A program made the translations under genes and the position numbers. The notes below the pieces were generated by a model, which saw nothing but the letters and a program-made list of their open reading frames with translations, did not search any database and was not told the origin of the DNA. From the NCBI GenBank assembly GCA_001244265.2, contig LN717261.1, positions 868,001-932,000 on the forward strand: DNA of 64,000 nt, in the 5' to 3' direction. This stretch comes from Microbotryum violaceum. Its lineage: Eukaryota. Below, piece by piece: positions 2,973 through 60,336 of the stretch (position 1 is the stretch's first letter; each line of letters starts with the position of its first letter).

Positions 2973-5900
2973 TGATTAAGCACACCATCATCACCTGGAA
3001 CGTGAGGAGGGGCATGGGGGTCCCGGAGAAACGACGTGACATTTACAACTACCTATCCCTTTTCAAAGCATCGGCCATTCTCATACAAGAGCACTTCATC
3101 AGACCGCACCTCTGGCAACTCATCAAGGACGAGTACAAGGGCAAGCTCTTCATCAACCAACATTGTCTGACTCTAATTTCGGCTGACTCCCCCTGATCGA
3201 CGCCGAGCTCTTGCGCACCCACTCGGCACTCGACGGCCGGCTCCTCGTCACGTCCTTTCGTCTGCGGGGCGACATCAAAATTCTAGAAATCAACAACGTT
3301 TACGCGCCCGTTGACCCAAAGCAACGAGCGAAATTCTTTGAAAAACTCTTATTTCACAAAACACAGAAATCCCACCTCCGACTCCTTGGCGGTGATCTCA
3401 ACGACTGCCCGCGCCCAGAAGTCGATCGGCGGAACCAAAGTCGGCGCGGCCACCACTGGCCAATCCTGATCGGCAAGCTCGACTCGGCCTACACGGACTG
3501 CATCCGCTACAAACACCCCATCACCCCATCCTTCACTCGACCTAATCCCAATCGCAAGCGACCCAACTCCTTCTCCCGGCTTGACTACTTTCTCCTGCAA
3601 CGGACACACCAAAAAAGACTCGATCAGGCCTCGACGATCTACGACTATTCCAAGGAGCTTTCCGATCACCGACCGGTCTTGATTGTGCTGGCTCTCTCAG
3701 ACGATCCTGATGCGACCCTCCCACAGCTCAGCCTACCTACCACATCAAACCAACTACATCGAATCAACACCACAACCTTTAAGACGGTGGAATTCCAGCG
3801 GATGATGGAAGGATGGTTGGAAGGGGCAAGCGGGGAGGAACCGGTGGGGGAGCTCGAGGTCATTCTGAAGGCGTGCAGGGATAGGGGTGGGGAGATGGCG
3901 AGGAGGCTGCATCGGGAGCGGACGGAACGGATGGAGTATTTGGTGGGGAGGGTTCAGGATCTGGAGGCGATACCGGAATGGGGGGAGGCGGAAACAGCAG
4001 AATGGACAAGGTCATCCGAGGAACTCAAGCGGGCGGGCGAGGAGCGCGCGCGCCAACTTCGGATCCGAGCCCACGTCCCCGAGATCGCCTCCGAGGAACG
4101 ACTGTCGCGGCCGGTTCACGCCAAGCTCGCGGCGCGGAACTCGGACTCCAAGATCACAGCACTGCGCTTGAGCAACGGAGAGCTAACGCATGACATTGAT
4201 GTCGCTCTTGACCACACGCAGGCGCATTTCCAGCGCCTCTACCACATCGAGCCTCGTGACCCGGACCGCGTCGACCGACTTCGGGACGAATTCCTCGCGC
4301 CGATCAGGGCGGCGCGGACTTGCGACGACCCGCGCTCGGATCCTCTCTTTCTGCGCCGACTCTCAGAATCGCAGATCGACTTACTCCAGCGACCAATCAC
4401 CGAGGACAAGGTCGTGGCCGCGATCGGGACGACGCACCCGGGGCGATCGCCGGGACCGTCGGGCGTGCCCTACGAACTCTACCAGACCGCACCCAAGGCG
4501 TGGGCCAAGGTGCTGACCAAGGCCTACCACGCGATGATAGAGCGAGGCTCACTCTCTCCCAAGCAGGGCCAAGGACTCGTGCGCCTCATCTTCAAGCGAC
4601 ACAAGAAGAATGCCGATCGCGCCGAACTTTCGTCGTACCGGCCGATCACCCTGCGCGAGTGCGATTACAAGATCTTTACCAAGGTCTATGTCGCCCGTTT
4701 GAACCAAATTCTACCCGATCTCCTCCCGCCGCAGCAGCACGGATTCGTCAGGGACCGCCGATCGGCTGACGCTGCACTACACCTTCGTCTCCTGATCGAG
4801 GAAGTTGGCGCGCGCAGGACCGAGTTCCCCGCGGCCGCACTCTTATCTCTTGACCAATCGTCCGCCTACGACCTCGTCGAGCATGCCTGGATCTTTGCCA
4901 TCTTTGACGCTCTGGGCGCTCCTGCCACCTTTCTTCGCGTGCTGAGGATGCTCTACTCGGGTGACTCGACCTCGGCCCGCTACATCATCAATGGGTTCTT
5001 GACGGCGCCGGTACGACTGACGTGTGGGCTCGGCCAAGGGGACCCGGCGTCGTCGTCGGTCTGGGACATCGTGTTCCAGCCGTTTCTGGATGCTCTACAC
5101 CGTCGAAACATCGCGCTGAATCTCTCCATACCTGCACTTCATCCGTACCCACAGAGCCGCGCCATTACATCGCTTGCTTTTGCCGATGACGTTGTCGTCG
5201 CCGTCGCGGGCTTGGGGTCACTCAACTTGCTCGATGACCTGGCGCTCGACTGGAGGCATGCAACGAATGGCCGGCTCAACACGGACAAGACGGTCGTCCT
5301 ACCGATCGGACGCCGCTGGGACCCGGGGCAACGCCCGCTCGTCGTCAAGGCCGCAGGCGAGTCGCTCGAGTGGATCGGCCTCCCATTCGACCCGAGCGGC
5401 GACACCGAACTCGCCTACGCGAATCTCATCGAACGCCTCGAGGCGACGCTGGAAGGGGTTCAGCATCGCTGGCTCACACACCACACCCGTGCCTTTTACG
5501 TCAATCGGTACGCCATCCCCAAGATCCTGCACTTCCTTGCAGCCGACATCCCGCCGCCCGAAGTTGTCAAGAAGCTCAATGACATGCTCGTCGATTTCGT
5601 CCGTGGGGGCAAGGGCAGGACCAGCTACGGCAGAGATATCGTGTTCACAGCCAAGCTCAAGGGGGGACTCGGGGTGATCAGGATGCAGGACGTCGTGGAC
5701 GCGGTTGCGGCACGGATCTGGGACGTTCTTCTCGGCGGTTCGGGCGCGATCTGGCAAGGACTTGCGCGCGCGGCACTCCAGCGAGCTCAGTCCGACCTCG
5801 ACCTGGCCACCAATCTCTGGCCACATCCATCCACTCCCATCCCCAGCGACCTCCTTCCCCGATGGCGAGCAGCATTGGGGGTTCCGAAACAGCAAGACGC

Positions 5901-6989
5901 GCAGGTCAACCCGAGGACCTTGACCACCGCGAACCTGCTCGCGCTTCCCACCTTGCTCGGCAGCCTCCACACGCCCATCAGAGGGAGACAGACCATCGAC
6001 GCGGTTCATATACCTGACTACCTTCGTCTCCAGGGCTACCCGAAGGTGGCGGATCTCTACCGGCGCGAGTTGTATGCGGGTGGGGGGTTTCACCTTTGGA
6101 CGCCGCCGGCGGATGTGCTCGGCGACAACAGCGAGTACGATCGACGCGGGCTCCCGCATCGACTGGCAATCGCGGCCTGGTACCGGTTCACTGTCGATCG
6201 ACACAAGAACACGCCCTTGGCGGTGGCGGTGGCGGCGGGACGGCTCAACGTGCCCCCCGGATCGGCACCAGCGCACCGCTCGAGGCGATTCTCCCCAAGC
6301 CCGTGGCCCGCTTCGCAATGGAGCAGCGCCTTCCGGACCCGGTGCTTCCACAGCAGGCGAGCCAGTACAATCTGCTGAACATGGCTCGACCGTACACCAT
6401 CCGTCGCATCCGCCGGGTCCTGAACGCGAAGGCCTTTACCAACACGCTCGGGCTCAAGGGACCACCGCAGCCGGACGACCTCAGGAGCTTTTGGAAGGCG
6501 GTCAACTCGAAGGCACTGACGGCGAGGGAGAGGGAAGTTTGGTTCAAGCTGATTCTCCGCTTCACCCCGACGCGCAAGCTGCAACACCAACAGAATCACG
6601 ACACTTCTCCCGCGTGCCTCGTCTGCGAAGCGCCGGTGGACGACACCGACCACTACTTTTTCGGCTGCGTTGACTCGCGGAATGTCTGGATCGCGGCAAG
6701 GGGCGTGCTCTGCGACGCACTCGGGTGCGACACGATTGAGGACGCCCAGTACACGACACTGCAACGGCTCTTTGGCCTCCCCAAGCTCAAGGCCAAGCTC
6801 AGCGAACAGGAAGGGGCGGGCAGGACGATCGAGATCTTCACGGGGATGGTTTTGGAGATGATCAGCAGTGGGAGATGGAGGATGCAGAAGCACGGGACGA
6901 GGATGGAAAGCGTGGAGAGGAGGAGAATGATACTGGAGGAGAGGATGAAGTTGAGGACGGGAGGAGCAAGGGGCGGGCGAGGGCAGTAG
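2972..6989 (+). CDS. LINE A ORF2: AP endonuclease, reverse transcriptase and C-terminal CCHC; two -1 frameshifts
   Basis: APE motifs TWNVR, QEH, GDLN, SRLDYF, SDHRP. RT motifs YRPITL, GQGDP, FADD. C-terminal CLVC...HYFFGC. Frame breaks fall in C runs at ~3189-3193 and ~6253-6258. Confidence 0.93.
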
Positions 6990-7653
6990 AGGCTGGGTTC
7001 GATTTCCCCCCCACCACACCCCACACACACACACCATCACGCTTCATCTTCCAACAAAACACTGTATACTAAATATCGTGCTTTCATCTTTCATCTATTA
7101 CAGGTCTGCCTTCGTTGCTCATGGACCGGCTCGCGATTTGAGATTGACTCGACGGTGACTCGCGCTCTTTGGCTTCGGGGTTCTGAGTCAAGGGAGGGAT
7201 CAGCAGACACAGGCGGAAAGTCGGCTTTGAGGGGCCAGGGACTGCTGAGGTGGAGGTTTTGAGGGGCCTCCACCGCGTCTTGTTGTGACCGAGCATAGAC
7301 TTGGGACTTCGCGGGTCAGGGTAGCTGCGCAGTCGCTCTCTTGTCTTTGTCTCGACCGAGTTGGGAAGTGACGGCGGGGTGGGTCTCTTGTCGTTAGTCA
7401 ATTGTTTTTGTACTCTTTCTCTTTCTCTCTCTCATTCGTCTCCTGGGGGGAGCAACCGCTTGGCTCGGGCACTTGAATCCCAAGTATCGGATTGGTGGAC
7501 ACCGGCCCGTTTCTCGCATCTTGCGGGCGGTTTGTGTTATCATCGTCGACTTCCATCTAGTTTTTTCCGTAGGCCAAATAGGGGGAACATGAATTGGGGG
7601 CAATATGATGAACAGTTTCTACAAAAATAAAAATAAAAAATGGGACTAACTTT

Positions 7654-8098: not shown

Positions 8099-10383
8099 AT
8101 GCAGACCGGCGATCCCGGCTCGGCCCCTGGGGCCAGAGCCCCACCACCGCCGGCGTCCGCGCCGACGAGCCTCCCGATTGCGGGGACGAAGGAGACGCAA
8201 GCCACCCAGGTCGCTGGCCGAACCGCGACCTACGCCGCCGCTACCAACTCTTCAGTGGTCTCGAATGAGACTCCTGCTCAGCAACAAGATCGACTTGCAC
8301 GTCTACAGGCTTTGCCCGGCATTCTGGCGGCAATTCAGGCCGTCCCCGGAAACCGAGCGGACCGTTTCGTTCAGGCCATCTTTGCGACCCCTGATTTCCC
8401 GTCCACGGTTGCTACTGCGCTCAAGTTCTCAGCTCTCAACGCCACAAGGAACATAATCAACCCGTTCGCCAACGCGCTCGAGGTGAGCCTGTCTCACCAA
8501 AGCACGGGGAGGGCATCTGCGACCGACAAAGGGGAGCTCGTTGCGTGCGTACGCACCCTGCTCTCGCCCAACACGCCGATCTGCTTTGACACCGGAGTCC
8601 CGCTTTCTGGTGATCTCGAAGCTTTCATGCCTCGGATCACCGGTCTCCAACACTCATCGACTTTCCGCACCGGGGTCCTGCACCATCGCATCACGGTCGG
8701 ATTCGTCTCGGCCGAGGCCCGTGACACGGCCCTTGCGTCCGCCCCCATGCTCGTCTGGAACTCGGCCAACGCGCGCTTTGCCAAGGCCCACCCCTTCCAC
8801 CGCAACATGCTCGAGATGCGCATCAATGTTGGTGTGGTCAGACCCCCTTCCAAGGAACAGATCGTCGCGGCGTTCCAGTCCATCGTTCAACAGCTCTCCA
8901 CCAAAGGTCACTCGTGCCACCTTGTGCAGGTTTTGCGCGTCATTCACGTCGACACCGCCAAGGCTTACGCCCACACCGTCGGTGACTTCTCGGCGTTCAT
9001 CCACTTCGATGACGCCTCTTTGTTCCAGCACCCGACTACTACGCTCAAGGAGATTCTCCCTTCGAGGATGGACTTGCCCACCCGCGGCCTTGACGTGACC
9101 GTCGTCCGACACGACTACGAAAAGGAGGCACCGTGCGCGCGCTGCCACTTTGCAGGTCACGTGGAGAGGTGCCCCCTGATGCAGGCCGCGAATAGAAAGG
9201 AGGCTGAGGACCTGGCCAGGCACGCGGTGATGAGAGGCGCCGGAATGGTGGGGGGAGGAGAGCAGACAGGAGTGGGTCGAGCGGCCACCACCACCACCAA
9301 CAACATCCGCCCCACTGCCAACAACAACAACACCTCCGAGGTGGTGGCCCCTAGCCGCGCCCTCGGAACCGACCAACTCGAATCGCGGAACCGATTTGCG
9401 GGGCTCGAGGTCGAAGGAGGACAGGAGGATGACATCGAGGAGGAGGTTGCAGGAAAGGAGGGCGAGGAAAAGGAGCAGGTCGAAGAAGGAGACGAGGATA
9501 CGGGCGCCAAGGCGGACGACGAGGATTCGGACTCGGATGGGAACGCCGGAGCGGGCATCGACAAGGCGGGAGGCGACGGCAAGGACGACGACAAGGACAA
9601 CGACGAGCACGACGACAAGGACGAACAGGACGACAGCTCGGAGGGAAGCGAACGAAGGGGGGATGACGTGATGAAAGATGGAGCAGAGGAGGAGGACGAA
9701 GGGATGGAGACGGAGGTGGAAGAAGAGGTCGAACAGGAACAGGGAGTACAGGACGACAGCATCATGATCATCGACGACGGCCAAACGACGATCACCACGG
9801 TTTCCCGCGAGTCGACTCCTCGGAGTCCCTCGTGGCCTCCACTATCTCCGGAGACGTTGGCAAAGTCGCTGCGCGAGGGTGCGGCGTGGGACCGAGCTAA
9901 CGCCGAAGCTGCTGCACGTTTCCAAGCAGAAAAGGAGGCGATCATCAGCGCCCAACTCGACGCGGAGGAACCGCTCGTTCGCCACCAATTTGCAGAATGG
10001 GGTCAGGAAGATGGACAACTGCGATTCATCAACATTCGTGGCACCGGCTCCCGGTCGAACAAGAAGATGAAGAGGTCGCAAACGGTGGCCGATCTCAGCG
10101 ATCCGAGCGACGACCCGGTCGATGTCAAGCGCGTTCTGAACAGGGTCAAAGGTCGAGCAGGAAAGGAGGTAGCGGGTCAGGGGAAGAGGGTGACGAGGTC
10201 GATGTCGGCGGCGGCGGCGGCGATGCAGGTCGAGGGGGCCAAGGCGAAAGCGGAGAAGGGTAAAGGGGTGGAGGAGGAGAAGCGCTGGTCCGACCACGAG
10301 CCCGAGGATGACATTCTCCCCGAATTCCCACTCTTTGAGGACGACACTACCGCCAAGAGCACGTCTACATCGTCTACCCAATA

Positions 10384-10384
<1 letters not shown>
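8099..10384 (+). CDS. LINE B ORF1, intact 761 aa (zinc knuckle [13 protein letters not shown])
   Basis: Uninterrupted ORF homologous to A ORF1. Confidence 0.9.
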
Positions 10385-14419
<4,035 letters not shown>

Positions 14420-16662
14420 AGGCTGGGTTCGACTTTCCCCCCACCACCACCACACACACGCACCAAATTCTCGTGACATCATTTTCTCCTACTGTACACT
14501 AAATAGATCGCTTTCATCTTTCATTTGTTACAGGTTCACCGTTGCGGATCATGGACCATCTCGCGATTTGGCGTCGACTCGGTGTGGCTCGCGCTCTTCG
14601 GCTTCGGGGTTCTGAGTCAAGGGAGGGATCAGCGGACACAGGCAGAAAGTCGGCTTTGAGGGGCCAGGGACTGCCGAGGGGGAGGTTTTGAGGGACCTTC
14701 ACCGCGTCTTGTTGTGACTGAGCAGAGACTTGGAGCGTCGAGGGTCGTGGTGGTTGCGCAGTCGTGGTCTTGTCTTCGTCTCGACCGAGTGGGAAGTGGC
14801 TGTGGGGTGGGCCTTCTGTCGTTAGTACATTTCTTTTCTTTCTTTTTTCTCTTCATCTCTCTTTCTCTCTCTCATTAGTCTCTTGGGGGGAGCAACCGCT
14901 TGGCTAGGGCATTTGAATCCGAATCTCGGATTGGTGGACTTGGCTCGTTTCTCGCACTTTTGCGGGCGGTTTGTGTTATCATCGTAGTCTTCCATCTAGT
15001 TTTTCCGTAGGCCAAAACAGGGGGAACAGGAACTGGGGGCAATATGATGAACGTTTTCTACAAAAAAAAAAAAAAAAAAGCCATGGCGGGCGGACTGGTG
15101 CACGGTCACATTGACTTCTACTACAACATCATCCCATGCAGGCCTTGATCGATGCCTTCGATTGATTATTGCCGCTCACCAACATGAACATGACGATCGC
15201 CGAGCTCCTCGCCTTCGATGTCGCTCCCGCCGACGTGTCTCTTCACATCGAGTTGTCCAAAGACGAGCTCACCCACTACTCGACCTTATCATCTACTCGA
15301 GGCCATTGAGAAGGCAAACAGCTTCTCACGAACAATCGTCTACCAAGCTCAACTATCGAAATTTTGGTCTAAGCTCATGCGTGTTTGGTTCTACACAGCC
15401 CACACACTTGAAACTTCCGCCTCAAGTTGTCGATGCTCGCGATACCAATTTCTCACTGAACTGGCCAACCTGATTGCTCATCAAGCTGCTCATAAGTGTA
15501 GCCACCTCGAGCTGTTCTACTCAAGGGAGGCCGATGGACTCGAGCGACTCAACTCGCGGAGAGGCAGGCGTAGGGGTTAGCAATACAGAGAAAGGACGCA
15601 GTACAACACATTCAAGCGTCTTGAAAGGGTTGGTACAGTCCATGGGACCATCTCGCTGCGAAGACACGGCGGGCACGACGAGGAGCTTGAACGAGATTCA
15701 GAAGAATGCCTATATTGAGGATGGCCGCATTCAAGTGAGTTGTTGCTGGATTTAGGAACGAAGGCAACTGGATCTAATGTTTTGCCGGTCCTAACGTTTA
15801 GGAAAAGCTCCCTGAGAGAGACAAGCAGTATGGAGCGCTAGCACAACGCTATCCTCATTTGGATCGCTTGACGGAGCTGTAACCGCTGCCACACCATTGG
15901 AGATTGGATCTCTGATCTGCTTTGGCCTCAAGTGTGGCATGCATTCACTCAGCTGCGAGCAAACTGTTTATGGAGAAGAAGCGCTGTCTATCGGAATTGG
16001 TACGCGCGTTGTTTTGAGTGGCAGTTGAGAAAGTTCTCGTTTGACACAAGTATTGTGTCCTACAGTGCGACACATCTACAGCAGAGTGACACCAAACCAC
16101 TGCAACCAAGACACGCTCGCCTCGTTGGTTCTACTCTCAAATGTCGTCGTACAGGAGCTTCGCCTCATCAAGAAAACATGCTATTCCACACACCTCATTG
16201 ATGGCACTATGCCGTTCCGCATGATTGATGGTCGACAGGTCATCGAGTCATTAGGCCCGTCAACGACTACATATCGTTCAACCACGGACCTTACCTCGTG
16301 TTACCCGGACGAGCGCCTAATCAGCACGAGCGCACATGCCGAGCAAAGATTTGCCGCCCTTCGGAGCGTGCCCTGCCTGCGAGATGCCGCCGGCAGAACC
16401 TCTACAAGCCGCACAAATGCCACCGCGGAAACAAGGAGCTCAACTTCAGCAAAAAGGAAGTCTGACAACGAAGCAGCGAGCCAGCCAGCAAAGCAAGGAA
16501 GGCTTGTTTGAAGCGTGGAGCCACGCGCAACACCAGCCGAAGCGACGCGCGCCGCGAGCCACTTTCGATAGGCCGCCGCGCGCCCGCAAACGCTCGGAAC
16601 GCGTTTTCGAGGACTTTTAAGCAATGTTTGTAGCATGTAGAACACATTTTGATAATATCTCC

Positions 16663-20085: not shown

Positions 20086-20430
20086 TGTGAGGAATCCACT
20101 CTCCGCTCGGCTCAGGACTTAGGCGCGCGGAATGAGCCGGGCGCATCGGCCCAGGACTTAGGCGCGCGGAGCGAGCCTGGCGCCTCGGCTCACGACTTAG
20201 GCCCGCGGAGCGAGCCTGGCCCATTGGCTCAGCCCCGAGGTTCGCTGGCTGAGGACTTGGGGCGCGCGGCTCTTTTACTGTTAGCTTCCTATTCATCACT
20301 CTTGGCTATAACTACATCGCTGACGTAGTAGAGTTGATCGAATAGGTATGTTGAAATGTATTCATCACTCTTGGCTATAACCACATCGCTGACGTAGTAG
20401 ACTTGATCGAATAGATACTTGGGCTGTTAC
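20086..20430 (+). repeat. Copia 3' LTR with 39-bp tandem repeats and a ~59-bp internal duplication
   Basis: GACTTAGG at 20116, 20155 and 20194. 20290-20348 is repeated at 20359-20417. Confidence 0.75.
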
Positions 20431-20434
20431 GGAT

Positions 20435-21073
20435 GTGCCCCGGGCCGATGCTTTTGCCGATAGTCGTCGCCTTCGTCTCCTCGACGCCACCGACGTCATC
20501 CTTGGCGCGCGACTGGACCAATCGATCCAGGCAAACAAGAATCGTCGACCGGATTCCGCTGAGTTTCGAGTGGGCAATCAAGTTTACCTGTCCACTAAAA
20601 ACTTGGCTTTTCCTCCAGGTCAGAGCCGGAAGTTCTTGGCACGCTACATTGGGTCCTTCACCATTGTAGCAGCCCATCCGGCGACGTCAAACTACGACCC
20701 GGACCTGCCACCCGAGATGTCCCGCGTTCTGCCTCGTTTCCATGTCTCGCTGTTGCGCCCGCACTTTCCGAACGACGACAAGCGCTTCCCCGGTCGTTCG
20801 TTCCAGCAGTGCGTGATCGAAGACGCGGCCGACCCTGCGTCGGACTTTGCAGCAATCGATGTTGTGTTGAACAATCGCTTCCGGAACAATCGTCGCTCGT
20901 TCTTGGTGCGCTTCGTGGGCCGCCCGGACGCCGACGACGTGTGGATCGACGAGGCGGTGTTGCGGCTGCAAGCGCCTTCGAGACTCGACGAGTACATCAG
21001 GAGGCTGGATCGCCAAGGGCGCCAATTGGCCGGCCCAACACCTCGCCGTAGGGTCAATTCTGGGGGTGGATAG
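20435..21073 (+). pseudogene. Ty3/Gypsy (chromovirus) integrase C-terminus: SH3-like region and chromodomain
   Basis: VGNQVYL..RKFLARYIGSF..FHVSLLRP; FLVRFVGRPDADDVW. A purine-rich PPT precedes TGTAAGG at 21074. Confidence 0.85.
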
Positions 21074-22711: not shown

Positions 22712-22934
22712 TGTAATACACCCCGTTGGAGTGTACACCTGAGCGGCAACGACAAGGATCACAGGACCAAAGTATGTAGAATTGACACTGGACACTCGTA
22801 TCAGTCGCTCGTATGACAATGCCTTCTGATCCACCTTGTGCTCACCTGGACACTCGTATCAGTCGCCGGAGAGAGACTAAGAGTGCCCAGGCGCGCGTCC
22901 CCTCCTCCTAAGGCCCAGGCGCACGGGCCTTACA
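22712..22934. repeat. Solo LTR family X, 223 bp (TGTAATAC...GGCCTTACA), no matching TSD
   Basis: Reverse complement of the split LTR at 47704-47750 plus 49682-49857. Confidence 0.9.
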
Positions 22935-27700: not shown

Positions 27701-27990
27701 TCGACTCTCCTGACCACTCGCGCGAGTTGTAGCGGAATAGTGGTTCGAGTTGCAGCAAGACGAAGGACAACATTGGTGTAGGAGTTGTTAAACAAATACC
27801 TCAAGCGGTGAAAACCCAGCCTTCTGGGGAAAACCGCAAGAAATTGATCTAAACGGAGGAGAGTCCGAACTTCTTGGTGATACACAGGGATGGTGGGCGG
27901 GATGACAATTGGGAGCTTTGCGACCCAAGCTTCTGGATGTCAGTCGGCTACAACTGATGATGGAGCAAGTCCACTGATCGTCTCAGCATA
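27701..27990 (-). repeat. ~290-bp repeat, inverted copy of 40828-41128
   Basis: Reverse-complement alignment by eye along its whole length. Confidence 0.92.
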
Positions 27991-27992
27991 CC

Positions 27993-28508
27993 TTTATATA
28001 TTAATATATATAATATATATAATTATATATATATATATAATTATATATATTATATATATTAATATATATATATATAATTATATATATTATATATATAATT
28101 ATATATATATATATAATTATATATATTATATATATATTAATAATATATATATATAATTATATATATATTAATATATATATAATATATATAATTATATATA
28201 TTATATATATATTAATAATATATATATATAATTATATATATATTAATATATATATAATATATATAATTATATATATTATATATATATATAATTATATATA
28301 TATATATATATTAATAATATATATAATTATATATATATATTATTAATATATATATAATATATATAATTATATATTATATATATATATTAATAATATTATT
28401 AATATATATATAATATATATAATTATATATTATATATATATATTAATAATATATATATATAATATATAATTATATATATATATATTTGTATAAATATATA
28501 AATATATA
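27993..28508. repeat. ~515-bp almost pure A/T minisatellite built from (TA)n with AAT/TT interruptions
   Basis: Read directly; one G (near 28488) in the run. Confidence 0.97.
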
Positions 28509-28659
28509 GAAGACAGTTTCAAGGATAGTTTTAAGGATTCTCATTCTGCCGCCGCCTCCCCTCGGCCCCACACACTCGCGCCTCGCGCTCTTTCTCGCCG
28601 TCACACCGACTCGCGTTCGTCTCAAGCACGCGGTGTGCAAGATAAAGGGGGTGCCGAAC

Positions 28660-38020: not shown

Positions 38021-38093
38021 CGGCTGGACCAGGAGTCGAACCTGGCTCGTTTCCATTAATCGGAAAAGCTTTGACCCACTAAGCTATCCGGCC
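38021..38093 (-). tRNA. tRNA-like gene with anticodon loop GA-TTA-AT (TTA in the anticodon position, non-canonical loop)
   Basis: Folds as GGCCGGA TA GCTT AGTGGGTCA AAGC T TTTCC GATTAAT GGAAA CGAG CCAGG TTCGACT CCTGG TCCAGCC G. It has A and B boxes and a T4 run 9 nt downstream. Confidence 0.8.
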
Positions 38094-40700: not shown

Positions 40701-40827
40701 TTTTGTGCACTTTAGCGGTTTAGCGGCTCGAGATTTATTTAGTGCCATTTAGCAAAGTGGCAAAGTTGCTGATGGCACCAACCGCGCCCCAACTGTCTTA
40801 TACAGTGTCTTGCCTTTGCCGCAAAGT

Positions 40828-41128
40828 TATGCTGAGACGATCAGTGGACTTGCTCCATCATCAGTTGCAGCCGACTGACATTCAGAAGCTTGGGTCGCAA
40901 AGCTCCCAATTGTCATCCCGCCCACCATCCCTGTGTATCACCAACTTGGAAGAAGTTCGGACTCTCTTCCGTTTAGATCAATCTCTTGCGGTTTTCCCCA
41001 GAGGGCTAGGTTTTCACCGCTTGAGGTATTTGTTTAACAACTCCTACACCACCAGCGTTGTCCTTCGTCTTGCTGCAACTCGAACCACTATTCCACTACG
41101 ACTCGCGCGAAGTGGTCAGGGGAGTCGA
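40828..41128 (+). repeat. ~300-bp repeat, inverted copy of 27701-27990
   Basis: Reverse-complement alignment to 27701-27990. Confidence 0.92.
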
Positions 41129-43817: not shown

Positions 43818-46800
43818 ACGCGTAGACTATGCTGCAGATGCACAAGGTCGAGTGAGGCAAGAGCGGAAGAGCGCAGGAGGGCACGAGGCGCGCGGGCAAC
43901 TTGAGGGCAGCCGGCATAGGAATTTACTGGAACTCACAGATCGGCAGGTCCATTAAGCCAGCCAAAAAAACTCGTGCGCGCACGCGCGATAAGGCAGCTT
44001 TTCTGTTTTTTGGCCCGGGTAGAGCTTGGTAGAGGGATGGTGTACCATTGCTCCCCCCTCCTCGCACACTCTTGCGCGGTGCACCTCTCTGGGCGTCCCA
44101 CGAGCCGTGAAGCGAAGCTTATTAGCTAATTGGTATTAGAGTTATCCCTATAGATAATACCAATCTTCTCATACCAATGTTCCCAAGAGTCGAATTCGGA
44201 ACCGAAATGCGATATAGCTGTTGTACCCGCGCCTGCTGACGAGATGGATACAACTAATGCACAGGTAAGACAGCTGCTGTATTGACCTTCTGCCCCCGGG
44301 TCTTAAGGGTAATAATGGTGGGACCAAAAAGCTGACTGGTCAATTGCTGTGAAGTGTATTAGATATATATAAAATGTGGCTCACGGTTTCCCTCCCGCAC
44401 TTTGAAGCTTTGATCTTGGCCCAAGCACGTGCACATCGACGCGTCGACGCACACTGGGTGACTAAATGCTCCTCAAATTGAGTCGGACCAGGTTCATGAG
44501 TGGTCCCACTTCTTGTTTCATGTTCCTGTTCTTGTTCTTTTGCAATGATCGACTGGGAGCGATCTTACACCTTGTCCAAACACGACCTCATCGCTGTCTC
44601 TCGCGCCTCGCATCTTAACCAATGATCATTTTGTGATTGTTCCGCATCTCGATAGTTGACACAAAGCACACAAGGGGACCACACCGGTGAAATTTCCGGT
44701 AGGAAGTCTCAGAATTTGGGTGTGTAGCTCATCATTCTCTCATCACCTGATTGTGTCCTACTCTCTGGAGTGCGACTTGACTTCTGACAAATCGCACTTT
44801 TCACAATGCATGCATGACCAGGGACTTCTCGCTTGACCCTCAGCTAGCTCAGCTGCGCACCCAACGCAGCATCGGACAGTGCAGTAGAAGGCTGTGGGCA
44901 AATTGATGGGAAGTGCAATACAGAGGGCGACTGGTAAATCTCAGGTTCTATCTGCCATGTGGAAACCCGATTATTCAAGACGATTTCGATCGCAATGTTG
45001 ACCACCGGTGGATTTTCCCCGCGCCGGGTACCCTGACTCAAAAACCTAGCCACTTTCAGTGCCACTACAGTACGATCTGGTGATGACCCTCGTTCTTACA
45101 AAGATGATTTCAAGCAAAAAAGCCCGAGGAGACCGATTGAGATATCACCAGAACTGTCATCTGCAAAGGCTGCGTTGGTCGACAGTAGAAACAGTCTGAG
45201 GTCAGCAATAGCTCGCAGGCCACTCGTGCACTCTGATGCGAGGAGGAATGGTGGAGTACGAAGAACAACATCGTGATCCTGACTCAATGATGTTCGGTCA
45301 GGTGTATGCACCCCACTTTTCCGTCCATAGCTAACTCCGAGCTTCCGCCTTTACGATGTAACAGTAGTACATGTACCGGTGAGAGCACGCAACGGATCGG
45401 GTCACACCGCAGAGAGCACATGAAAGGCGCAGGTGTGATTGGCATCAAAGTCACCTTTTTCTCAGCACCGGGACAGATATCATTGGTATATTGTCAAACT
45501 CATTCCTCGTTATCACACTAGAATGAGTCCAGTCATACACGAACATCCTGTCAGGGGTATTAAGTGCGTTGTCATGTATCTGAAATGTCGAGAATCCGAT
45601 AATGTCGACGCAAACGTACAACTGTCTAAGTGGCTGCGTGGCGTAAAGTGGCCAAGACAACACCATTGAAAAGCACCGAAAAACAGATCGAGTATGGGAC
45701 CAGATTAGCCTTCGTTCGAGTACACAGTAGAGTGTGGGGGTAAATGAAGTCTGATAATTAGCAATGTGATCTCTGCTGAGATCTCAGGAAGTATCAACAA
45801 AGACCTGGCACGGACTTCGGGCAGCTGACTGGCCTGACTGCGCACGCTATAAACACCAAACGCAATGGCGGAAATTTGAAAGCGCACTAACTAAGCGCAG
45901 CCAAGAAGAGTGCCCGCTTATCTTATCGCCAGCAGCAGAGAGCTTTCCTTCTGGATCTCTAGCTGACCTGTTAGACCTCCCGCTGTTGGCACTACTGCTG
46001 GGCAGTAACCTTTTCAAGCGGGCTAGAGCGCATTTAAGCGGTAGCCAATCCCTGTCAGCGTTGGTTGCCTCTCGGTCATATGGCTGCTACTTTGCATTCC
46101 GTGCACTTCCGGGAGAAGGGCAATATTGTATGACATGAAGAGACACTAGTCAATGAAAAGGCAAAAGCACGCAAGCGCTCGCATCATCTGTTTGGATTGA
46201 GGCTTTTGGAACAAGAGCCTTCGATTCCAGACAGCCATTAAAAATTTCCCAAGTTTCGTCATCACTGCCATCATCTTCCGCATTGAACTCCCACTCCTCA
46301 AGCACAAATGCACCGTTGTCTGTGGCGTCGATAGAGTAATGACTCAAATCGTCGCTCAAATGATCACTCATGTCAAAGTCAACTCCTTTGTTCGTGTTGT
46401 CGTCCGTCTCATCAATTGTGTCACCAGGGCTGTGTAAGGCTCGGTTGCCTTACGCTATTTAACTACCCTTCTGATTTCAATATGCATCTATTGAAATCGT
46501 CAGTCTTTTGGACCGTGTAACCTAGTCGTGAAGGGCCTGGGGTATTACAGGCTGCGGGCAAACGAAGTCAAATCCGGCAGGCCATCCGCTGTCGTTTGCT
46601 CAGCGTCGTCGGTACCCCAAAGCCCAAGCGCCACGCACCCCTCCACCTGTTGTTCGCCCGTGTCATGGGTGCACTGCCACAGGTAGTAACCAAGCCCGGG
46701 ATCGATGGCTCCAATGGAAGGGGCTCCGAGTCGGTCGACGTGTTGGACGCGGCCTCGTTGGGTTGCCGTAAATACTGTGGTACTCGGGATCCGGTTGCAT

Positions 46801-47994
46801 CCGCTATTTCAGTCTCTCAGCTAATAGAAGTCATAGCGGCAGTAAGTTCTGGACTCGGGCGTCTCGACGTCGAGTCATTCCTGGCGGCCACGAGAGGAGG
46901 GAGGCTAAAGCTGGCTTACGGGAGGGAGAGGAAGAGGATGTGATTTCGAGGGGCCTTCACTTTTGCGCCGCAAAGACTCGGAAAATGACGAGCATTGGTG
47001 GGATCGGTAAGGCAGCATTTGGAAGGAAGACCGAGCCCGATATGCGGAGGAAGCGGTGAAGGGGAATGAACAGAAAGCAGCGGTTTGAACTGCCGGGACT
47101 TTTGAGGGGAGTTTTCTTCTTGTTTTCAGAAAAACTTCCAGGATCCAATACAAATTTTTATTGTCTCTCACTTTTTGCGTGTTTCAAGTCTCGTTTGGCA
47201 TTGTCTCCAGCCTCCGACCTCAGCGTTTTGTTCTCGAACTCGGTCTCGCTTCTCGATTCAACCCCCACTGCAGTCTCTCGTGTCTCTCGCCTTGGCGTCT
47301 TAAAAGCTATTAGTCATACCTTAGCCTTTTATTGTCATATCATATTTGATCGCTATACCATAATGCGAGCAGCGTAGCTGGAGGATTTTACAGATGCCTC
47401 GCTCTTTGGGGACAAGACTGGCTCCTTTTTTCGTTCTCGCACGGGCCATGACCTCATGGCATCTTGTTCTTTTTCTTTTTCTTCTTCGCCCCATCCTCTG
47501 GCCCCGTGGTCGCCCCGCTCTCGATGATCGCGTAAGCCGCCTTCTTCTTCCTCCGCCTCGTGAATTTCTTACGCTTGGTCTTGGTGTCTTTTTCCTTGTC
47601 TTTCTCTACTAGGGACGCTGGATTTGCTTGTGGTAGTGGCGATGTGTGTCACAGGGAGCCCATGCTTGAAGCGATGCCGATGAGTGCAAGGCGGTGGGGG
47701 AGGTGTAAGGCCCGTGCGCCTGGGCCTTAGGAAGAGGGGACGCGCGCCTGTGTAATACTCTGTAGTTACTCAAAGGCCCGATGCGCGTCTGGCCTTAGGC
47801 ATTGCCGGAAAGTAGGGCCTCTCTTCCTTTCCGACCAGTTTATTCTTTGGAATACATACTTGTATCCTGTCACCTGCAAGGCCCGACGCTGGGGCCTTAC
47901 ATTTTGTTTTTGACATCCGATATAAGAATTCGCCAAGAACACTCCGTCACCGCTTCAAACCGGCTCGACGTACACACAACGCAGGTCGTTTGCC

Positions 47995-48243
47995 GCACAC
48001 CCCGCACGACACTTGTCGTTTGTCATACAGAGCCGTCTCTGTTCGCCGTCCACATCACACGTCGCAAGACGTTCGCCACACCCCCGCACGACTCGCGTCG
48101 TTTGTCATACAGAGCCGTCTCTGTTCGCCGTCCACATCACACGTCGCAAGACGTTCGCCACACCCCCGCACGACTCGCGTCGTTTGTCATACAGAGCCGT
48201 CTCTGTTCGCCGTCCACATCATACGTCGCAAGACGTTCGCCGC
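47995..48243 (+). repeat. Three 82-bp tandem repeats in the leader of the gag-only element
   Basis: TGTCATACAG recurs at 48021, 48103 and 48185. Confidence 0.92.
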
Positions 48244-48562
48244 ATTGCTTACACGACTTGGTCGTTCGCCGTCACACACAACTGCTGAGGTTGTTCGCCG
48301 TTTACGCGACCGTCGTCGCTCGTCCGGCCTTTTTCTTTTCACTTCGCACGCGACCGCCACCGTTGCTCGCCGAACGCGCCCCTCCGTCGCTCGCCCGCAC
48401 GGTTTCGTTTCTTTTTTTGCTTCGCACGCAATCGCCGCCACCCGCCCGCGCCCATCCGTCGCCGACGCCCCGCTTTCCAATCTGGCCCCACAAACCAGAA
48501 ACAGCAAGGATCAGGGACCCCCACCGAACAAGGACGCTCCGCCGCATCTCGTACCAAAGTCG

Positions 48563-49489
48563 ATGCCGAAGATGTCGGACCGAGCGCCTACACGACTCCA
48601 CATGCCAGAGCTCAAGGCACCGTTTACGGCGGAGGACGTCATCCTCTGGCTAGGCGACTGCGAGGACGCAATCGAGGCATTTGGGGATCTCAAGCGTTCC
48701 GATGAGACGTTGACGGTCGTTCGACAAATCAGGGAAGCTGGCATGAAAATGCAGGGCGAAGGGAAAATTTGGTGGAATCAGCACAGGGATGAACTGAAGG
48801 CATTGACGACATGGGATGCCTTTGCGGCTGAGGTGAGGGAACGGTTCCTGGACTCGGGCTTTGTGCTCACCGCCGAGCACGACTTCTACCGTACGCGACA
48901 AGGGTCGGATTCTTTCACTACGTACGCTGCGAAGCTAGCGAGTCGGCGCGCAACCTTGGGTATTGGCAAGGACGGGGGAAAGTTCATCAATGACGACCAA
49001 TTCAAACGACACTTGCTACATCACGCCAACGACCTACTGTATGCGCGTACCACCTCAACTGCCGGCTTTACACTCTCAACATTCACAGTGAACTCGCTCA
49101 TTGGACACATGACGGCGGTCGCTTCCTCGCTGGGACTCGAGTGGAAAGGTCAAGTGTCCGTCACCAACTCCCGTATCACTCGCTCGCCACGGGATCTCAA
49201 ATCAAACATGGCAAGGCACACACCATTGACAGCTGAGGTCCGACAACAGTGCATTGATGAGGGTCGCGGCTTCAACTGCCGGGAAATGGGGCATAATATT
49301 TGCAAGTGCCCAAAGACGACAGGCGGGACAATTGGGGACCACCCGGATCAACTCAACTTCATGGGCAACCAGGCATACCGTCAACCATGGGGTTCCGACT
49401 CAAGTGACTCGGAATTGGACAAGGCGTTTGAGAATGAATGGCTGGGAGGATCTGAGAAAGAAGAGGAGGATGAAGAAGAGAAGAAGTAG
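48563..49489 (+). CDS. Retrotransposon Gag (capsid-like region, degenerate zinc knuckle, acidic tail)
   Basis: GKIWW..LTTWDAFAAEVRERF..RQGSDSFTTYAAKL; GFNCREMGHNICKC. Confidence 0.85.
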   Translation: MPKMSDRAPTRLHMPELKAPFTAEDVILWLGDCEDAIEAFGDLKRSDETLTVVRQIREAGMKMQGEGKIWWNQHRDELKALTTWDAFAAEVRERFLDSGFVLTAEHDFYRTRQGSDSFTTYAAKLASRRATLGIGKDGGKFINDDQFKRHLLHHANDLLYARTTSTAGFTLSTFTVNSLIGHMTAVASSLGLEWKGQVSVTNSRITRSPRDLKSNMARHTPLTAEVRQQCIDEGRGFNCREMGHNICKCPKTTGGTIGDHPDQLNFMGNQAYRQPWGSDSSDSELDKAFENEWLGGSEKEEEDEEEKK

Positions 49490-50671
49490 ATAAGGGAGGC
49501 AGGGTTTGGTTCAGGTGGTGGAGAGTGTAATACTCTGTAGTTACTCAAAGGCCCGATGCGCGTCTGGCCTTAGGCATTGCCGGAAAGTAGGGCCTCTCTT
49601 CCTTTCCGACCAGTTTATTCTTTGGAATACATACTCGTATCCTGTCACCTGCAAGGCCCGACGCTGGGGCCTTACAGCCTGGGCACTCTTAGTCTCTCTC
49701 CAGCGACTGATACGAGTGTCCAGGTGAGCACAAGGTGGATCAGAAGGCATTGTCATACCAGCGACTGATACGAGTGTCCAGTGTCAATTCTACATACTTT
49801 GGTCCTGTGATCCTTGTCGTCGTCGCTCAGGTGTACACTCCAACGGGGTGTATTACAGGAGGGTTGAAGCTTGAAGGTGGGGGTGCCAGTGCCATGTGTT
49901 GAGGCAAAGGGCTGAGTAGTGTAGGCAAGTTAGCAACACTACTTAGCCGCTATTCTGCCTCCGGGCGCGGGCCGTGAGAGGGGGGGATGGTATACCATGC
50001 CTGTACCAACGTTTTCCTGGGCCAAATTTCAAAAAAGCTGCCTTAACGCGTTGCGCGCGACCTAGTTTTTTTGGCAAAATTAATTTGACCCGCATAGGTG
50101 GGAACTCATAGGAAAGTCATGTGAACTATGTAATAGGAACTCGAGAGGGCAACCAATGCCGACAGCGGTTCCGACTCGAAGAACTACCAAATCAGGGTTC
50201 CCATCAGGACAACTTCGACTTGCAAGTAGTTTTGACGTTCGAATTATACACCTGGGATCTAGTCTGTCCTGTAGCCAAAAAGAAGTCGAGTAGCAGAAAA
50301 CATAACGGGTACTATGTAGGTCGGGGAGTTGGCCCGGAAGTGGTTGGCAGGCTGATGCACCAGCAAATGGCCACGCGCGCAAACCCGCTTAAGGATCCGC
50401 CCAAGATTACATGCGCTTAACAGCGCTTAACGGTGCATAAGATGTGAATAAGGACGCATACACGCATAAGAGGGCTTACGGACCGCTTTGCGTATGCAAA
50501 AAAAGCGCGCGAGGAGTCTTAAGCGCGCCGCAAGCGCGCCGTATGCGCGCGCCGTAAGTGCGCCGTACACATGCGCGCGCGAAAATTATGGAGGGCATAA
50601 GGCAGCTTTTGTCCTATGAGGCCCGTAGGGCAAGTTTTGGGATTCCATAAGGCATTTTGTAATGCCTCGAT

Positions 50672-58287: not shown

Positions 58288-60045
58288 ACCATATGCGCGC
58301 GCTAGGGGGAAATCCTTATGGCCTCGCCGTAGGTAGGCGCTAGGGAAGCCCTACGGAGGCCTTAGGGATCTCATTCTTATCGAGGCATTACAAAATGCCT
58401 TATGGAATCCCGAAACTTGCCCTACGGGCCTCATAGGACAAAAGCTGCCTTATGCCCTCCATAATTTTCGCGCGCGCATGTGTACGGCGCACTTACGGCG
58501 CGCTTACGGCGCGCTTGCGGCGCGCTTAAGACTCCTCGCGCGCTTTGTTTGCATACGCAAAGCGGTCCGTAAGCCCTCTGTTGGTCTTGACAAAAAGCGG
58601 CCTCGTCCCTACCGAAGCGTACAACAAGAATCTCCCGTTCCGCCACAACCTGCTTTCAAACATTCCGGCTCTGTTGGTGCAGGGTCGTAGTGATCTCTTC
58701 CGACACGTGAGCAGATGCCTCGCGTCTTGTGGTCTCCGAGCAGTCCTGACAAAATTGTAACTCTTCCCAGATCCATAAAGCTCAAAAGGACAAAGCTAAT
58801 CTAGGCCGTACCATCAATCAATGGTACAAAGGCCAACAGGTTGCCGTCACGGAAGGGCACGTGACCTGGTGGAGTATACTGGTGCATATTTATGAAGAGC
58901 CCGCCTCCACCCTCGATCCTGACCTGCGCTTGTAATCACCATACCAGTGGCAGGCGATGAAGGCGCCGAACGTTTCGAACCCCAGCGATTCCAAGGCCAA
59001 CAGCTTCGCAAACAAGCTCAAGCGTTATGGTGACAGCCTCGCCGCAGACACGGCGACAACACACCTCACGGGAAGCTACAAGAGGAATGGAAGATTTGAC
59101 CATCAAGCGTGAGCTTTATGCTTCATATGCTGACACTTGGTGACTTTTTTGGCGCGTACAAGGTTTCTCTTCGACATGGTCACGGCAAAGATGAAGCAGC
59201 ATTCCGGCATCCGGACGGCTTCCCAAGACACACTCAGCGGTCACGCGCTACAAGCCGTCTGCTCTGAAGTCGCCGAGGATCCGGTGAACAACCTCAGCTT
59301 TGCCAGCTGAGTAGCCGTGAGTGGCGCCCTCACTCGACCACATGTCGAACTTGGACTGACAAACGATCCCCCGGATCGAACCCAGGACGCAGTCCAGGAG
59401 ATGGGTTCCAGTTTGGGAACAGCGAGGAAGAAGAAGAGGACGGAAGACCACCAAAGATGAGGAGCAGATCGAGGACGGGCAACCCTAAGCAACGCGCTAT
59501 CGAATAAGCTCTCTGGAGCATTCGACATGTGCAAGGGACTCGGGCGCGACTTGGGGTGGAGTTGGGGTGGACCATGGGTGGGGCTTTCTGAGACATGTAA
59601 CGGGGTTTTTTAGACTTGTATCAACATGTTTTTAGTGTTTGCAATGAGTGTTGCTTCGTGTGATAAGTCTACAGGAGCCAGAAGAGAGCAATATGTACCT
59701 ACAGCACCTGGTCCAGCATTTACTACAGCGTCCACCTGGTCTCCTTATTGATGCCCTACGTGTACCACATTGCGTCCATGCTTCTACATTAGCGCCACCC
59801 TATCGTCCCACTATGGCTTCCTTCGGGAGTCTATATCAAGCCGACCTATGGCTGCCGTATGGCTCGCACGTATTCATGCCTTATGGGCTGGCCATATATG
59901 GGCCTCGACTCTTTTGTAGAAGCGCGGCTAGGTAGCGGGGTATAAGTCGAGTTGCATTATCAGGCATGAAACCCGGCATCCCGTAATGTGTATTGTTGTT
60001 GATGATCGGGAGATGGAAGATACGGGGTTTATACCGAGCTCACAT

Positions 60046-60336
60046 CAGCAAAATGGCCACGCGCGCGAACCCGCTTAAGGATTCGCCCGAGATTACGCGC
60101 GCTTAACGGTGCATAAGATGTGCATAAGGACGCATACGCGCATAAGAGCGCTTACGGACCGCTTTGCGTATGCAAACAAAGCGCGCGAGGAGTCTTAAGC
60201 GCGCCGTAAGAGTCCTTTATCTAGGGTACACTTAAGCGACACTTAACGCGCGCGCAGCTTAACGAGTGGTTAAGGGCGCTTAAGAGCAGCTTTAGGCCGC
60301 TTAACAACTGCTTTACGAGGTTTGGCCATTTTGCTG
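60046..60336. mobile_element. MITE with 14-bp TIR CAGCAAAATGGCCA and 2-bp TSD AT
   Basis: Perfect TIR, many GCTTAA subterminal repeats; the left half matches 50361-50530. Confidence 0.85.

What the first reader, a model, noticed from the sequence alone, without database searches (positions are those of the whole stretch)
47699..49862. Young gag-only LTR retroelement nested in a solo LTR that shares its termini
Seen: 1.9 kb, LTRs 150/151 identical, perfect GCCTG TSD, a leader with three 82-bp repeats, an intact Gag ORF ending ~35 nt before the 3' LTR, no protease/RT/integrase remnant and no obvious TGG-type tRNA PBS. Its ends (TGTAATAC...GGGCCTTACA) are the same as those of the otherwise different family-X LTR into which it inserted in the opposite orientation. 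Known: gag-only TR-GAG elements are described in plants. Inference: a fungal non-autonomous lineage that supplies its own capsid and borrows Pol from a helper with the same att ends.
Basis: partly seen in the sequence, partly recalled or inferred. Interest (0 to 1): 0.7.

Follow-up and report, generated by a model that had tools for sequence, protein, structure and literature searches.

The report
Gag-only LTR retrotransposon in anther-smut fungus
A small, recently inserted fungal retrotransposon that keeps only its capsid (Gag) gene and must borrow copying enzymes from another element; this layout is known from plants, and this copy is already decaying.

Summary
At 47751-49676 lies a 1926-bp LTR element. 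Its two 151-bp LTRs are 150/151 identical and it has a GCCTG target duplication. It carries a 661-bp leader with a 3.3-copy 82-bp array and one 308-aa Gag ORF, and no Pol remnant. It sits, inverted, in a 223-bp solo LTR (family X). An uninterrupted X paralog at 22712-22934 proves the insertion.

The reading is partly supported. In contigs of four public runs the gag end joins straight to the LTR. LTR depth is about twice internal depth. Other flanks follow the LTR in three runs. So this is probably a low-copy gag-only family (roughly 1-3 copies) and not a one-off deletion.

The shared ends are real and extend to a third LTR family (46433-46549), so they mark a lineage and not one helper. No helper, primer-binding site or self-primer was found.

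This copy's zinc knuckle has lost its first Cys. The listed recent changes look neutral (8 non-synonymous, 3 synonymous) and partly RIP-like.

It fits plant TR-GAG elements apart from the missing PBS and unproven copy number. Four full-text searches found no fungal case. Earlier scan notes (e1-7551515, e1-7271475) describe other Pol-less retroelement-like genes in other fungi.

The parts
47699..47703 (.). Left target-site duplication (GGAGG) of the host family-X solo LTR
   Evidence: Same pentamer at 49858-49862
47704..47750 (-). Host family-X solo LTR, its 3' (CCTTACA) end; the last 5 nt are the GCCTG copied on insertion
   Evidence: 97.8% match to 22934-22889
47746..47750 (.). Left TSD (GCCTG) of the gag-only element
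   Evidence: Repeated at 49677-49681; present once in the uninterrupted paralog
47751..47901 (+). 5' LTR, 151 bp, TGTAATAC...GGGCCTTACA, with a terminal hairpin AAGGCCC-loop-GGGCCTT
   Evidence: 150/151 identical to the 3' LTR; fold
47902..48562 (+). 661-nt leader with no ATG and no TGG-type PBS at its start
47973..48241 (+). Tandem array of an 82-bp unit, 3.3 copies
   Evidence: TRF; the repeat finder. Contigs of X1, X9 and X15 join 48014 to 48179, i.e. one unit
48563..49489 (+). Gag ORF, 308 aa: capsid domains, zinc knuckle, acidic tail
   Evidence: Pfam PF03732; AlphaFold2 model pLDDT 80.8; best fold matches dArc1, PNMA2, PEG10 and HIV capsids
49268..49309 (+). Zinc knuckle reading G-x2-C-x4-H-x4-C; the first Cys codon is GGC in this copy
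   Evidence: Runs X9 and X15 read T at 49268, giving TGC Cys; P0012 has Cys; column at least 90% Cys
49513..49525 (+). Polypurine-like tract AGGTGGTGGAGAG abutting the 3' LTR
   Evidence: Read
49526..49676 (+). 3' LTR
49677..49681 (.). Right TSD (GCCTG)
49677..49857 (-). Host family-X solo LTR, its 5' (TGTAATAC) part
   Evidence: 97.8% match to 22892-22712
49858..49862 (.). Right TSD (GGAGG) of the host LTR
22712..22934 (+). Uninterrupted family-X LTR (223 bp), the empty-site reference; no matching TSD
46433..46549 (-). Third LTR family (Z): 117-bp solo LTR, TGTAATAC...GCCTTACA, TSD GGCTG at 46428-46432 and 46550-46554

Best explanation
This is a non-autonomous LTR retrotransposon that has kept only gag, laid out like the TR-GAG elements of plants, in an anther-smut fungus (Microbotryum).

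Shown: a complete LTR-leader-gag-PPT-LTR unit with a 5-bp TSD, inserted recently into a solo LTR of another family. The gag-to-LTR junction is the only form seen in contigs of three DNA runs. It has a private LTR whose depth is about twice that of its inside.

Inferred: RNA made from the 5' LTR is translated into Gag. The RNA is packaged and then reverse-transcribed and integrated by protease, RT and integrase supplied in trans by a Pol-encoding element. That helper would belong to the LTR lineage that shares the terminal TGTAATAC...GCCTTACA sequences, the likely integrase recognition ends, and the 5-bp TSD.

The family is low-copy. After insertion this copy took RIP-like TCG-to-TTG changes and lost the first Cys of its zinc knuckle, so its own Gag is probably no longer fully competent. 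The primer for minus-strand synthesis is unknown.
For: Structure and TSD. Gag only: Pfam hit, no Pol family.

Gag is a real capsid-type protein. 460 relatives reach E<=1e-3 among 1.84 billion representatives. The AF2 model has pLDDT 80.8. The top fold matches are dArc1, PNMA2, PEG10 and HIV capsids.

From. Contigs X1 record 4 (47872-49640), X4 record 21 (48192-49555) and X9 record 27 (48724-49637) run from gag into the LTR. LTR to internal depth is 154.1 to 71.7 in X4, 43.3 to 22.8 in X9 and 10.2 to about 4-5 in X15. X9 internal depth is 20-23 against flank contigs at 6.7-7.7. The LTR end is followed by other sequence in X1, X9 and X15.

Relatives exist in two named Microbotryum species. Of the 151 best relatives the median length is 283 aa. 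0 of the 15 that are 540 aa or longer carries a protease-RT-integrase array; 5 of those 15 carry stray copia, gypsy or LINE pieces.

Three LTR families in the window share the ends, while their interiors are no more alike than shuffles.
Against: Only one copy lies in the window and no genome was available. Copy number therefore rests on contig depths, which the tool says are not copy numbers. In X1 the internal depth (67.7) is close to a flank contig (52.6), which suggests about one copy.

No tRNA-type PBS and no self-primer were found, which is odd for a young copy. No helper was found. A loose-end consensus suggests family X carries TT+TGG... after its LTR, and the element does not.

Run X15 has a contig that shares the PPT and LTR from 49504 on but differs upstream. 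This could be a sibling with the same LTR and a different inside.

Of the 11 listed gag differences, 8 are non-synonymous and 3 synonymous, a ratio of about 0.8, so there is no sign of recent purifying selection. The zinc knuckle is broken in this copy.

Standalone gag-sized relatives are also what separate gag and pol ORFs of autonomous elements would give.
Confidence: 0.6

Rival explanations
1. It is a one-off internal deletion of an autonomous element. A full-length gag-pol element with the same LTR inserted here or elsewhere and lost pol by recombination. On this reading the gag-only form is a dead end that never transposed as such.
For: There is a single copy in the window. X1 internal depth is close to the flank depth. 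An X15 contig shares the PPT and LTR but has other sequence upstream of 49504. The gag substitutions look neutral.
Against: The LTR to internal depth ratio of about 2 in four runs leaves little room for a second element with the same LTR. Contigs pass from gag into the LTR without a listed branch in X1, X4 and X9. X9 depth is about three times its flank. Other flanks follow the LTR end in three runs. Contigs drop rare variants, so this is not proof.
Confidence: 0.2
2. It is a single old insertion inherited vertically by closely related species. The several runs then hold orthologous copies, and the other flanks belong to solo LTRs or assembly artefacts.
For: Copies in the four runs are at most about 3% different by the mismatches listed: X4 0 of 1364, X1 2 of 1605, X9 7 of 914. 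No contig listed bridges the LTR and the host LTR, so occupancy of this site in the runs is unknown.
Against: The LTR pair differs at 1 of 151, and that change is at a RIP-like site, which points to a recent insertion. X9 depth is about three times its flank. X9 and X15 show different sequence directly after CCTTACA.
Confidence: 0.12
3. It is a host-retained Gag gene, kept for example as a restriction factor against related elements, and not a mobile parasite.
For: The ORF is intact, and the gag family is widespread in Basidiomycota as proteins of about 300 aa.
Against: It has LTRs, a TSD and a PPT and lies inside other repeats. The zinc knuckle is broken here. 8 of the 11 listed changes are non-synonymous. 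The two M. silenes-dioicae relatives are visibly degenerate.
Confidence: 0.05

Closest known systems
TR-GAG elements of plants (Chaparro et al. 2015, PMC4350172; abstract and passages read)
   Same: Short (under 4 kb) LTR element with LTRs, a PPT and a single ORF with Gag similarity. It has no protease, RT, RNase H or integrase and is presumed to be mobilised in trans.
   Different: The host is a fungus. No PBS could be identified, whereas TR-GAG1 has a tRNA-Leu PBS. The LTRs are very short (151 bp against about 485 bp). Copy number is very low, whereas the TR-GAG definition asks for at least two copies. The leader is long and repeat-bearing.
TRIM and LARD non-autonomous LTR retrotransposons (as described in passages of PMC4350172)
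   Same: LTR-bounded, Pol-less, dependent on a helper, and prone to nesting in other repeats.
   Different: My recollection, not from the passages read, is that TRIM and LARD lack coding capacity. This element keeps a full-length Gag ORF.
BARE-2 of barley (named in PMC4350172; the rest recalled)
   Same: A non-autonomous partner of an autonomous LTR element that shares recognition sequences with its helper.
   Different: As I recall it, BARE-2 keeps pol and has a defective gag, which is the reverse of this element.
Tf1-type self-priming Ty3/gypsy elements of fungi (recalled)
   Same: A fungal Ty3/gypsy-type Gag and no tRNA-type PBS.
   Different: No complement of 7 nt or more exists between the 40 nt after the 5' LTR and any part of the element. 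The best duplex with the LTR is interrupted, at -16.2 kcal/mol, and 2.6% of shuffles do as well.

Membership tests
TR-GAG (criteria as given in PMC4350172) | Two LTRs and total length of at most 4 kb | tested here: met
   151-bp LTRs, 150/151 identical; 1926 bp in all
TR-GAG | Similarity to Gag but none to protease, integrase, RT or RNase H | tested here: met
   PF03732 at 27.4 bits; no Pol family in 5 other ORF translations
TR-GAG | PPT upstream of the 3' LTR | tested here: met
   AGGTGGTGGAGAG at 49513-49525 abuts the LTR
TR-GAG | PBS downstream of the 5' LTR | tested here: not met
   No TGG within 85 nt of the LTR end. The only tRNA-like gene in the window does not fit. The genome's tRNA set could not be checked.
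TR-GAG | At least two copies in the genome | tested here: inconclusive
   One copy in the window and no genome held. Contig depth suggests about 1x in X1 and about 3x in X9, with other flanks in X1, X9 and X15.
Ty3/gypsy (Metaviridae)-type Gag | Two-lobed capsid fold and the Retrotrans_gag profile | tested here: met
   The Pfam hit is above the gathering score. The best Foldseek rows are dArc1 (E 2.3e-3), PNMA2, PEG10 CA-CTD (TM 0.81 on the target) and HIV CA, with none at E<=1e-3. The profile against PDB gives dArc1 at E 0.0028.
Ty3/gypsy-type Gag | CCHC zinc knuckle | tested here: not met
   This copy reads GFNCREMGHNICKC. Relatives, runs X9 and X15, and P0012 have Cys at the first position.
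Self-priming (Tf1-like) elements | The site after the 5' LTR is complementary to the start of the transcript | tested here: not met
Solo LTR (the host, family X) | A single LTR flanked by a TSD, with no internal region | tested here: met
   GGAGG on both sides. The two halves re-join into a 223-bp LTR, each half 97.8% identical to 22712-22934.

The most novel reading that the evidence does not exclude
The roughly 300-aa Gag family with an acidic tail marks an old, basidiomycete-wide lineage of Pol-less, capsid-only LTR elements. These would persist as parasites or competitors of Pol-encoding elements that share their LTR ends. They would use an unconventional primer, since no PBS is present, and a conserved terminal LTR hairpin.
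Probability: 0.15. Interest if true: 0.65.

Novelty: new member of a known kind. Interest (0 to 1): 0.4.

Why it matters
Gag-only LTR elements are described for plants. The full-text searches run here found no fungal report.

A fungal case would show that keeping the capsid while losing Pol recurs across kingdoms. It would also offer a compact system, in a fungus with many sequenced sister species, for asking three questions. Does a parasite element gain from coding its own Gag? How is a helper chosen through shared LTR ends? What primes reverse transcription when no tRNA site is present?

As it stands, this is a low-copy, decaying example without an identified helper, so the value is modest.

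Tried and rejected
- **Whole genome:** none is held, so copies could not be counted directly.
- **Fused gag-pol forms:** the 'longer' search found none among 3895 candidates. This is weak evidence.
- **Metagenome scans:** Scans with A1 and with P0149 found no relative, so no DNA context of any relative could be read.
- **RNA evidence:** no RNA holder is listed for the stretch, and X15 is only guessed to be RNA. Nothing can be said on expression.
- **Rfam:** a scan of 47600-49900 gave only a chance-level snoRNA row at E 0.38.
- **Self-priming:** rejected.
- **RNA fold around the LTR/leader junction:** no better than shuffles, z -0.38.
- **Leader as coding or ATG-depleted:** it has no ATG and two stop-free frames, but dinucleotide shuffles give no ATG in 10% of trials. 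The stop-free result disappears once the array is collapsed.
- **Family-X copy at 22712 as the 3' LTR of the gypsy integrase fragment at 20393-21073:** rejected. 1.6 kb of non-coding-looking sequence lies between them, and there is no purine tract before the LTR.
- **Earlier scan notes:** look-ups by sequence with the element, the Gag and the X LTR found no look-alike in other windows.
Full report
**Observation**

A direct repeat at 47750-47901 / 49525-49676 has a single mismatch. Its first base is a shared G outside the TG...CA ends. The LTRs are therefore 47751-47901 and 49526-49676: 151 bp and 150/151 identical. GCCTG lies on both sides, at 47746-47750 and 49677-49681.

Between the LTRs lie three parts:
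- a 661-nt leader with an 82-bp unit repeated 3.3 times at 94% matches;
- one ORF of 308 codons, 48563-49489;
- 36 nt that end in the purine-rich AGGTGGTGGAGAG directly before the 3' LTR.

The ORF hits Pfam Retrotrans_gag above its gathering score (27.4 against 24.1 bits). Five other ORF translations from the element gave no Pol family, only two chance-level rows.

The element interrupts a 223-bp LTR of another family (X) that lies on the minus strand at 47704-49857, with GGAGG on both sides. The two halves of that LTR match one uninterrupted copy at 22712-22934 at 97.8% each. They overlap there by a single copy of the duplicated pentamer. This works as an internal empty-site control and shows that the insertion and its TSD are real.

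**What the ORF is**

A profile of the Gag and three relatives found 460 proteins at E<=1e-3 among 1.84 billion representatives. An AlphaFold2 model built on 26 sequences has mean pLDDT 80.8. Its best Foldseek rows are capsid proteins: dArc1 (E 2.3e-3), PNMA2, the PEG10 CA C-terminal domain and HIV-1 CA. No row reaches E<=1e-3. The profile against PDB sequences gives dArc1 at E 0.0028 and Ty3 Gag at 0.042. It is therefore a Ty3/gypsy-type capsid plus zinc-knuckle protein with an acidic tail.

Named relatives come from three sources:
- two Microbotryum silenes-dioicae proteins, 66% and 73% identical and both visibly degenerate;
- a 126-aa M. lychnidis-dioicae gene model, 121/126 identical to the C-terminal part;
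- three agaricomycete proteins at 26-29% identity.

Earlier notes of this scan also called this genome Microbotryum. The protein names agree with that.

**This copy's Gag is damaged**

The knuckle reads G-x2-C-x4-H-x4-C. The first position is Cys in at least 90% of 26 aligned relatives, in P0012, and in runs X9 and X15, which read T at 49268.

Of the 11 differences within gag that one search lists between the window and the runs, 3 are synonymous and 8 are not. With 209 synonymous and 715 non-synonymous sites, the ratio is about 0.8. One search did not show 30 further rows, so this count is partial.

Of the 17 listed differences in the internal region, 7 have TTG or CAA in the window where the runs have TCG or CGA. 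The one LTR difference is of the same kind. TCG is the target of the RIP-like process reported for Microbotryum (passage of the preprint 10.1101/2022.08.03.502670).

So the copy is young, already mutated, and shows no sign of recent purifying selection.

**One-off deletion or a family**

No genome is held and the window has no second gag. The evidence therefore comes from contigs of four public runs, from four coded organisms, laid on 47300-50300.

Single contigs run from gag or the leader into the 3' LTR in three runs:
- X1: 47872-49640, with the array as one unit;
- X4: 48192-49555;
- X9: 48724-49637.

LTR depth is about twice the internal depth:

| Run | LTR depth | Internal depth |
|---|---|---|
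| X4 | 154.1 | 71.7 |
| X9 | 43.3 | 22.8 |
| X15 | 10.2 | about 4-5 |

This is what two LTRs per gag-only copy would give. It leaves little room for a Pol-bearing element with the same LTR.

In X9 the internal contigs (20-23) are about three times the flank contigs (6.7-7.7). In X1 the figures are 67.7 against 52.6, about one copy.

The LTR end is followed by sequence unlike the window in X1 (two contigs), X9 and X15.

Against this, the tool warns that contig depth is not copy number and that contigs drop rare variants. The rows shown include no contig that bridges the LTR and its host LTR. One X15 contig shares the PPT and LTR from 49504 on but has unlike, purine-rich sequence before it, so a sibling with another inside may exist.

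I put 0.6 on a low-copy gag-only family that has moved as such, 0.2 on a one-off deletion, and 0.12 on a single inherited insertion.

**Relatives at the protein level**

The 151 best relatives have a median length of 283 aa, and 15 are 540 aa or longer. All 15 were scanned against Pfam. None has a protease-RT-integrase array. Five carry stray pieces of three different kinds: gypsy integrase tail and chromodomain, copia integrase and RVT_2, and LINE RVT_1.

In one group of near-identical gags, the sequence after the acidic tail continues into different neighbours: LINE, gypsy or copia. This fits gag units that sit in many repeat contexts.

It is suggestive only. Autonomous elements with separate gag and pol ORFs would also yield gag-sized proteins, and no DNA context of any relative could be fetched.

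**Shared ends and the helper**

The element's LTR and family X share TGTAATAC at the start and GGGCCTTACA at the end. A third, 117-bp solo LTR at 46433-46549 (minus strand, TSD GGCTG) begins TGTAATAC and ends GCCTTACA. The interiors of the three LTRs are no more alike than shuffled sequence.

All three end in a hairpin whose 3' arm is the LTR terminus. The ends thus mark a lineage of elements, plausibly served by related integrases, and do not single out family X.

Family X is abundant: its empty-site joint has depth 1651 in X1 against 52.6 for a flank contig. No Pol-encoding member of this lineage lies in the window. The copia and gypsy pieces at 16.7-21.1 kb and 62.5-63.9 kb are not bounded by these ends.

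One loose-end consensus in X1 places TT+TGG... after a family-X LTR. The gag-only element has no such site.

**Priming**

No TGG lies within 85 nt of the 5' LTR. No complement of 7 nt or more exists between the 40 nt after the LTR and any part of the element. The best duplex with the LTR is interrupted and is matched by 2.6% of shuffles. The window's only tRNA-like gene does not fit. The primer remains unexplained, which is odd for a copy this young.

**Comparison and novelty**

By the criteria in Chaparro et al. 2015 (PMC4350172; abstract and passages read), the element meets four: LTRs, PPT, length under 4 kb, and Gag without Pol. It fails the PBS criterion, and the two-copy criterion is inconclusive.

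It is not a TRIM or a LARD, because it codes for a protein; that TRIM and LARD are non-coding is my recollection, not taken from the passages read.

The literature searches gave the following:
- 'TR-GAG' with 'retrotransposon' held 19 papers; the 18 listed concern plants or plant tools.
- 'TR-GAG' with 'fung' listed 4 plant papers.
- 'gag-only' with 'LTR' and 'fungal' found none.
- A looser search turned up no fungal gag-only report in its listing.
- Passages from three fungal TE papers mention non-autonomous elements only in general terms: PMC3248453, PMC7175516 and PMC12210899.

Subscription papers and supplements were not seen.

Earlier notes of this scan describe a Pol-less mini LTR element and a Pol-less, LTR-less Gag-protease gene in other fungi (e1-7271475, e1-7551515). 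I did not check them.

I file this as a new member of a known kind. It is moderately interesting. Its main open points are the missing PBS, the unidentified helper and the true copy number.

Noticed in passing
46428-46554: A third LTR family: a 117-bp solo LTR on the minus strand with TSD GGCTG. It has the same TGTAATAC...GCCTTACA ends as the gag-only element and family X.
   Followed up: partly
47875-47901; 22909-22934; 46433-46455: All three LTR families with these ends finish in a hairpin (AAGGC(CC)-loop-(GG)GCCTT-ACA) whose 3' arm is the LTR terminus. Stem length differs between families. The role is unknown.
   Followed up: partly
47973-48241: The 82-bp leader array may vary in unit number. 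Contigs of runs X1, X9 and X15 join 48014 to 48179 (one unit), while X4 agrees with the window's three units. Collapse during contig assembly cannot be excluded.
   Followed up: partly
47703-47704 and 49504 (runs X9, X15): X9 has two contigs in which a PPT-like stretch resembling 49505-49525 runs straight into TGTAAGG.... X15 has a contig that shares 49504 onward but differs upstream. These may be sibling elements and could not be followed.
   Followed up: no
47535-47698 and 49858-49937: The sequence around the family-X solo LTR is itself repeated. A joint 47698 to 49858 (no X LTR) has depth 274 in X1 against 52.6 for a flank contig. The nesting is therefore three deep.
   Followed up: no
49700-49781: Family X carries an internal 24-nt direct repeat 58 nt apart. 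Contigs in X1, X4 and X9 skip 63 nt here, with 6 other letters in between, which points to length variants of the family-X LTR.
   Followed up: no
38021-38093 (minus strand): ARAGORN calls a tRNA-like gene with anticodon TTA (labelled 'tRNA-Stop'). It may be a miscalled, intron-bearing or degenerate tRNA.
   Followed up: no
2659-7640 and 10067-15079: Two LINE copies (RVT_1 plus endonuclease) lie 7.4 kb apart in the same orientation and are about 72-92% identical block by block.
   Followed up: no
27718-27995 and 40823-41110: Inverted repeats of 72-122 nt, 88-98% complementary and about 13 kb apart, lie next to an AT-only low-complexity block at 27988-28520. They could be ends of a large DNA transposon.
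   Followed up: no
50365-50671, 58379-58579, 60051-60210: A short repeat family is present in direct and inverted copies at 88-99% identity, just right of the finding.
   Followed up: no
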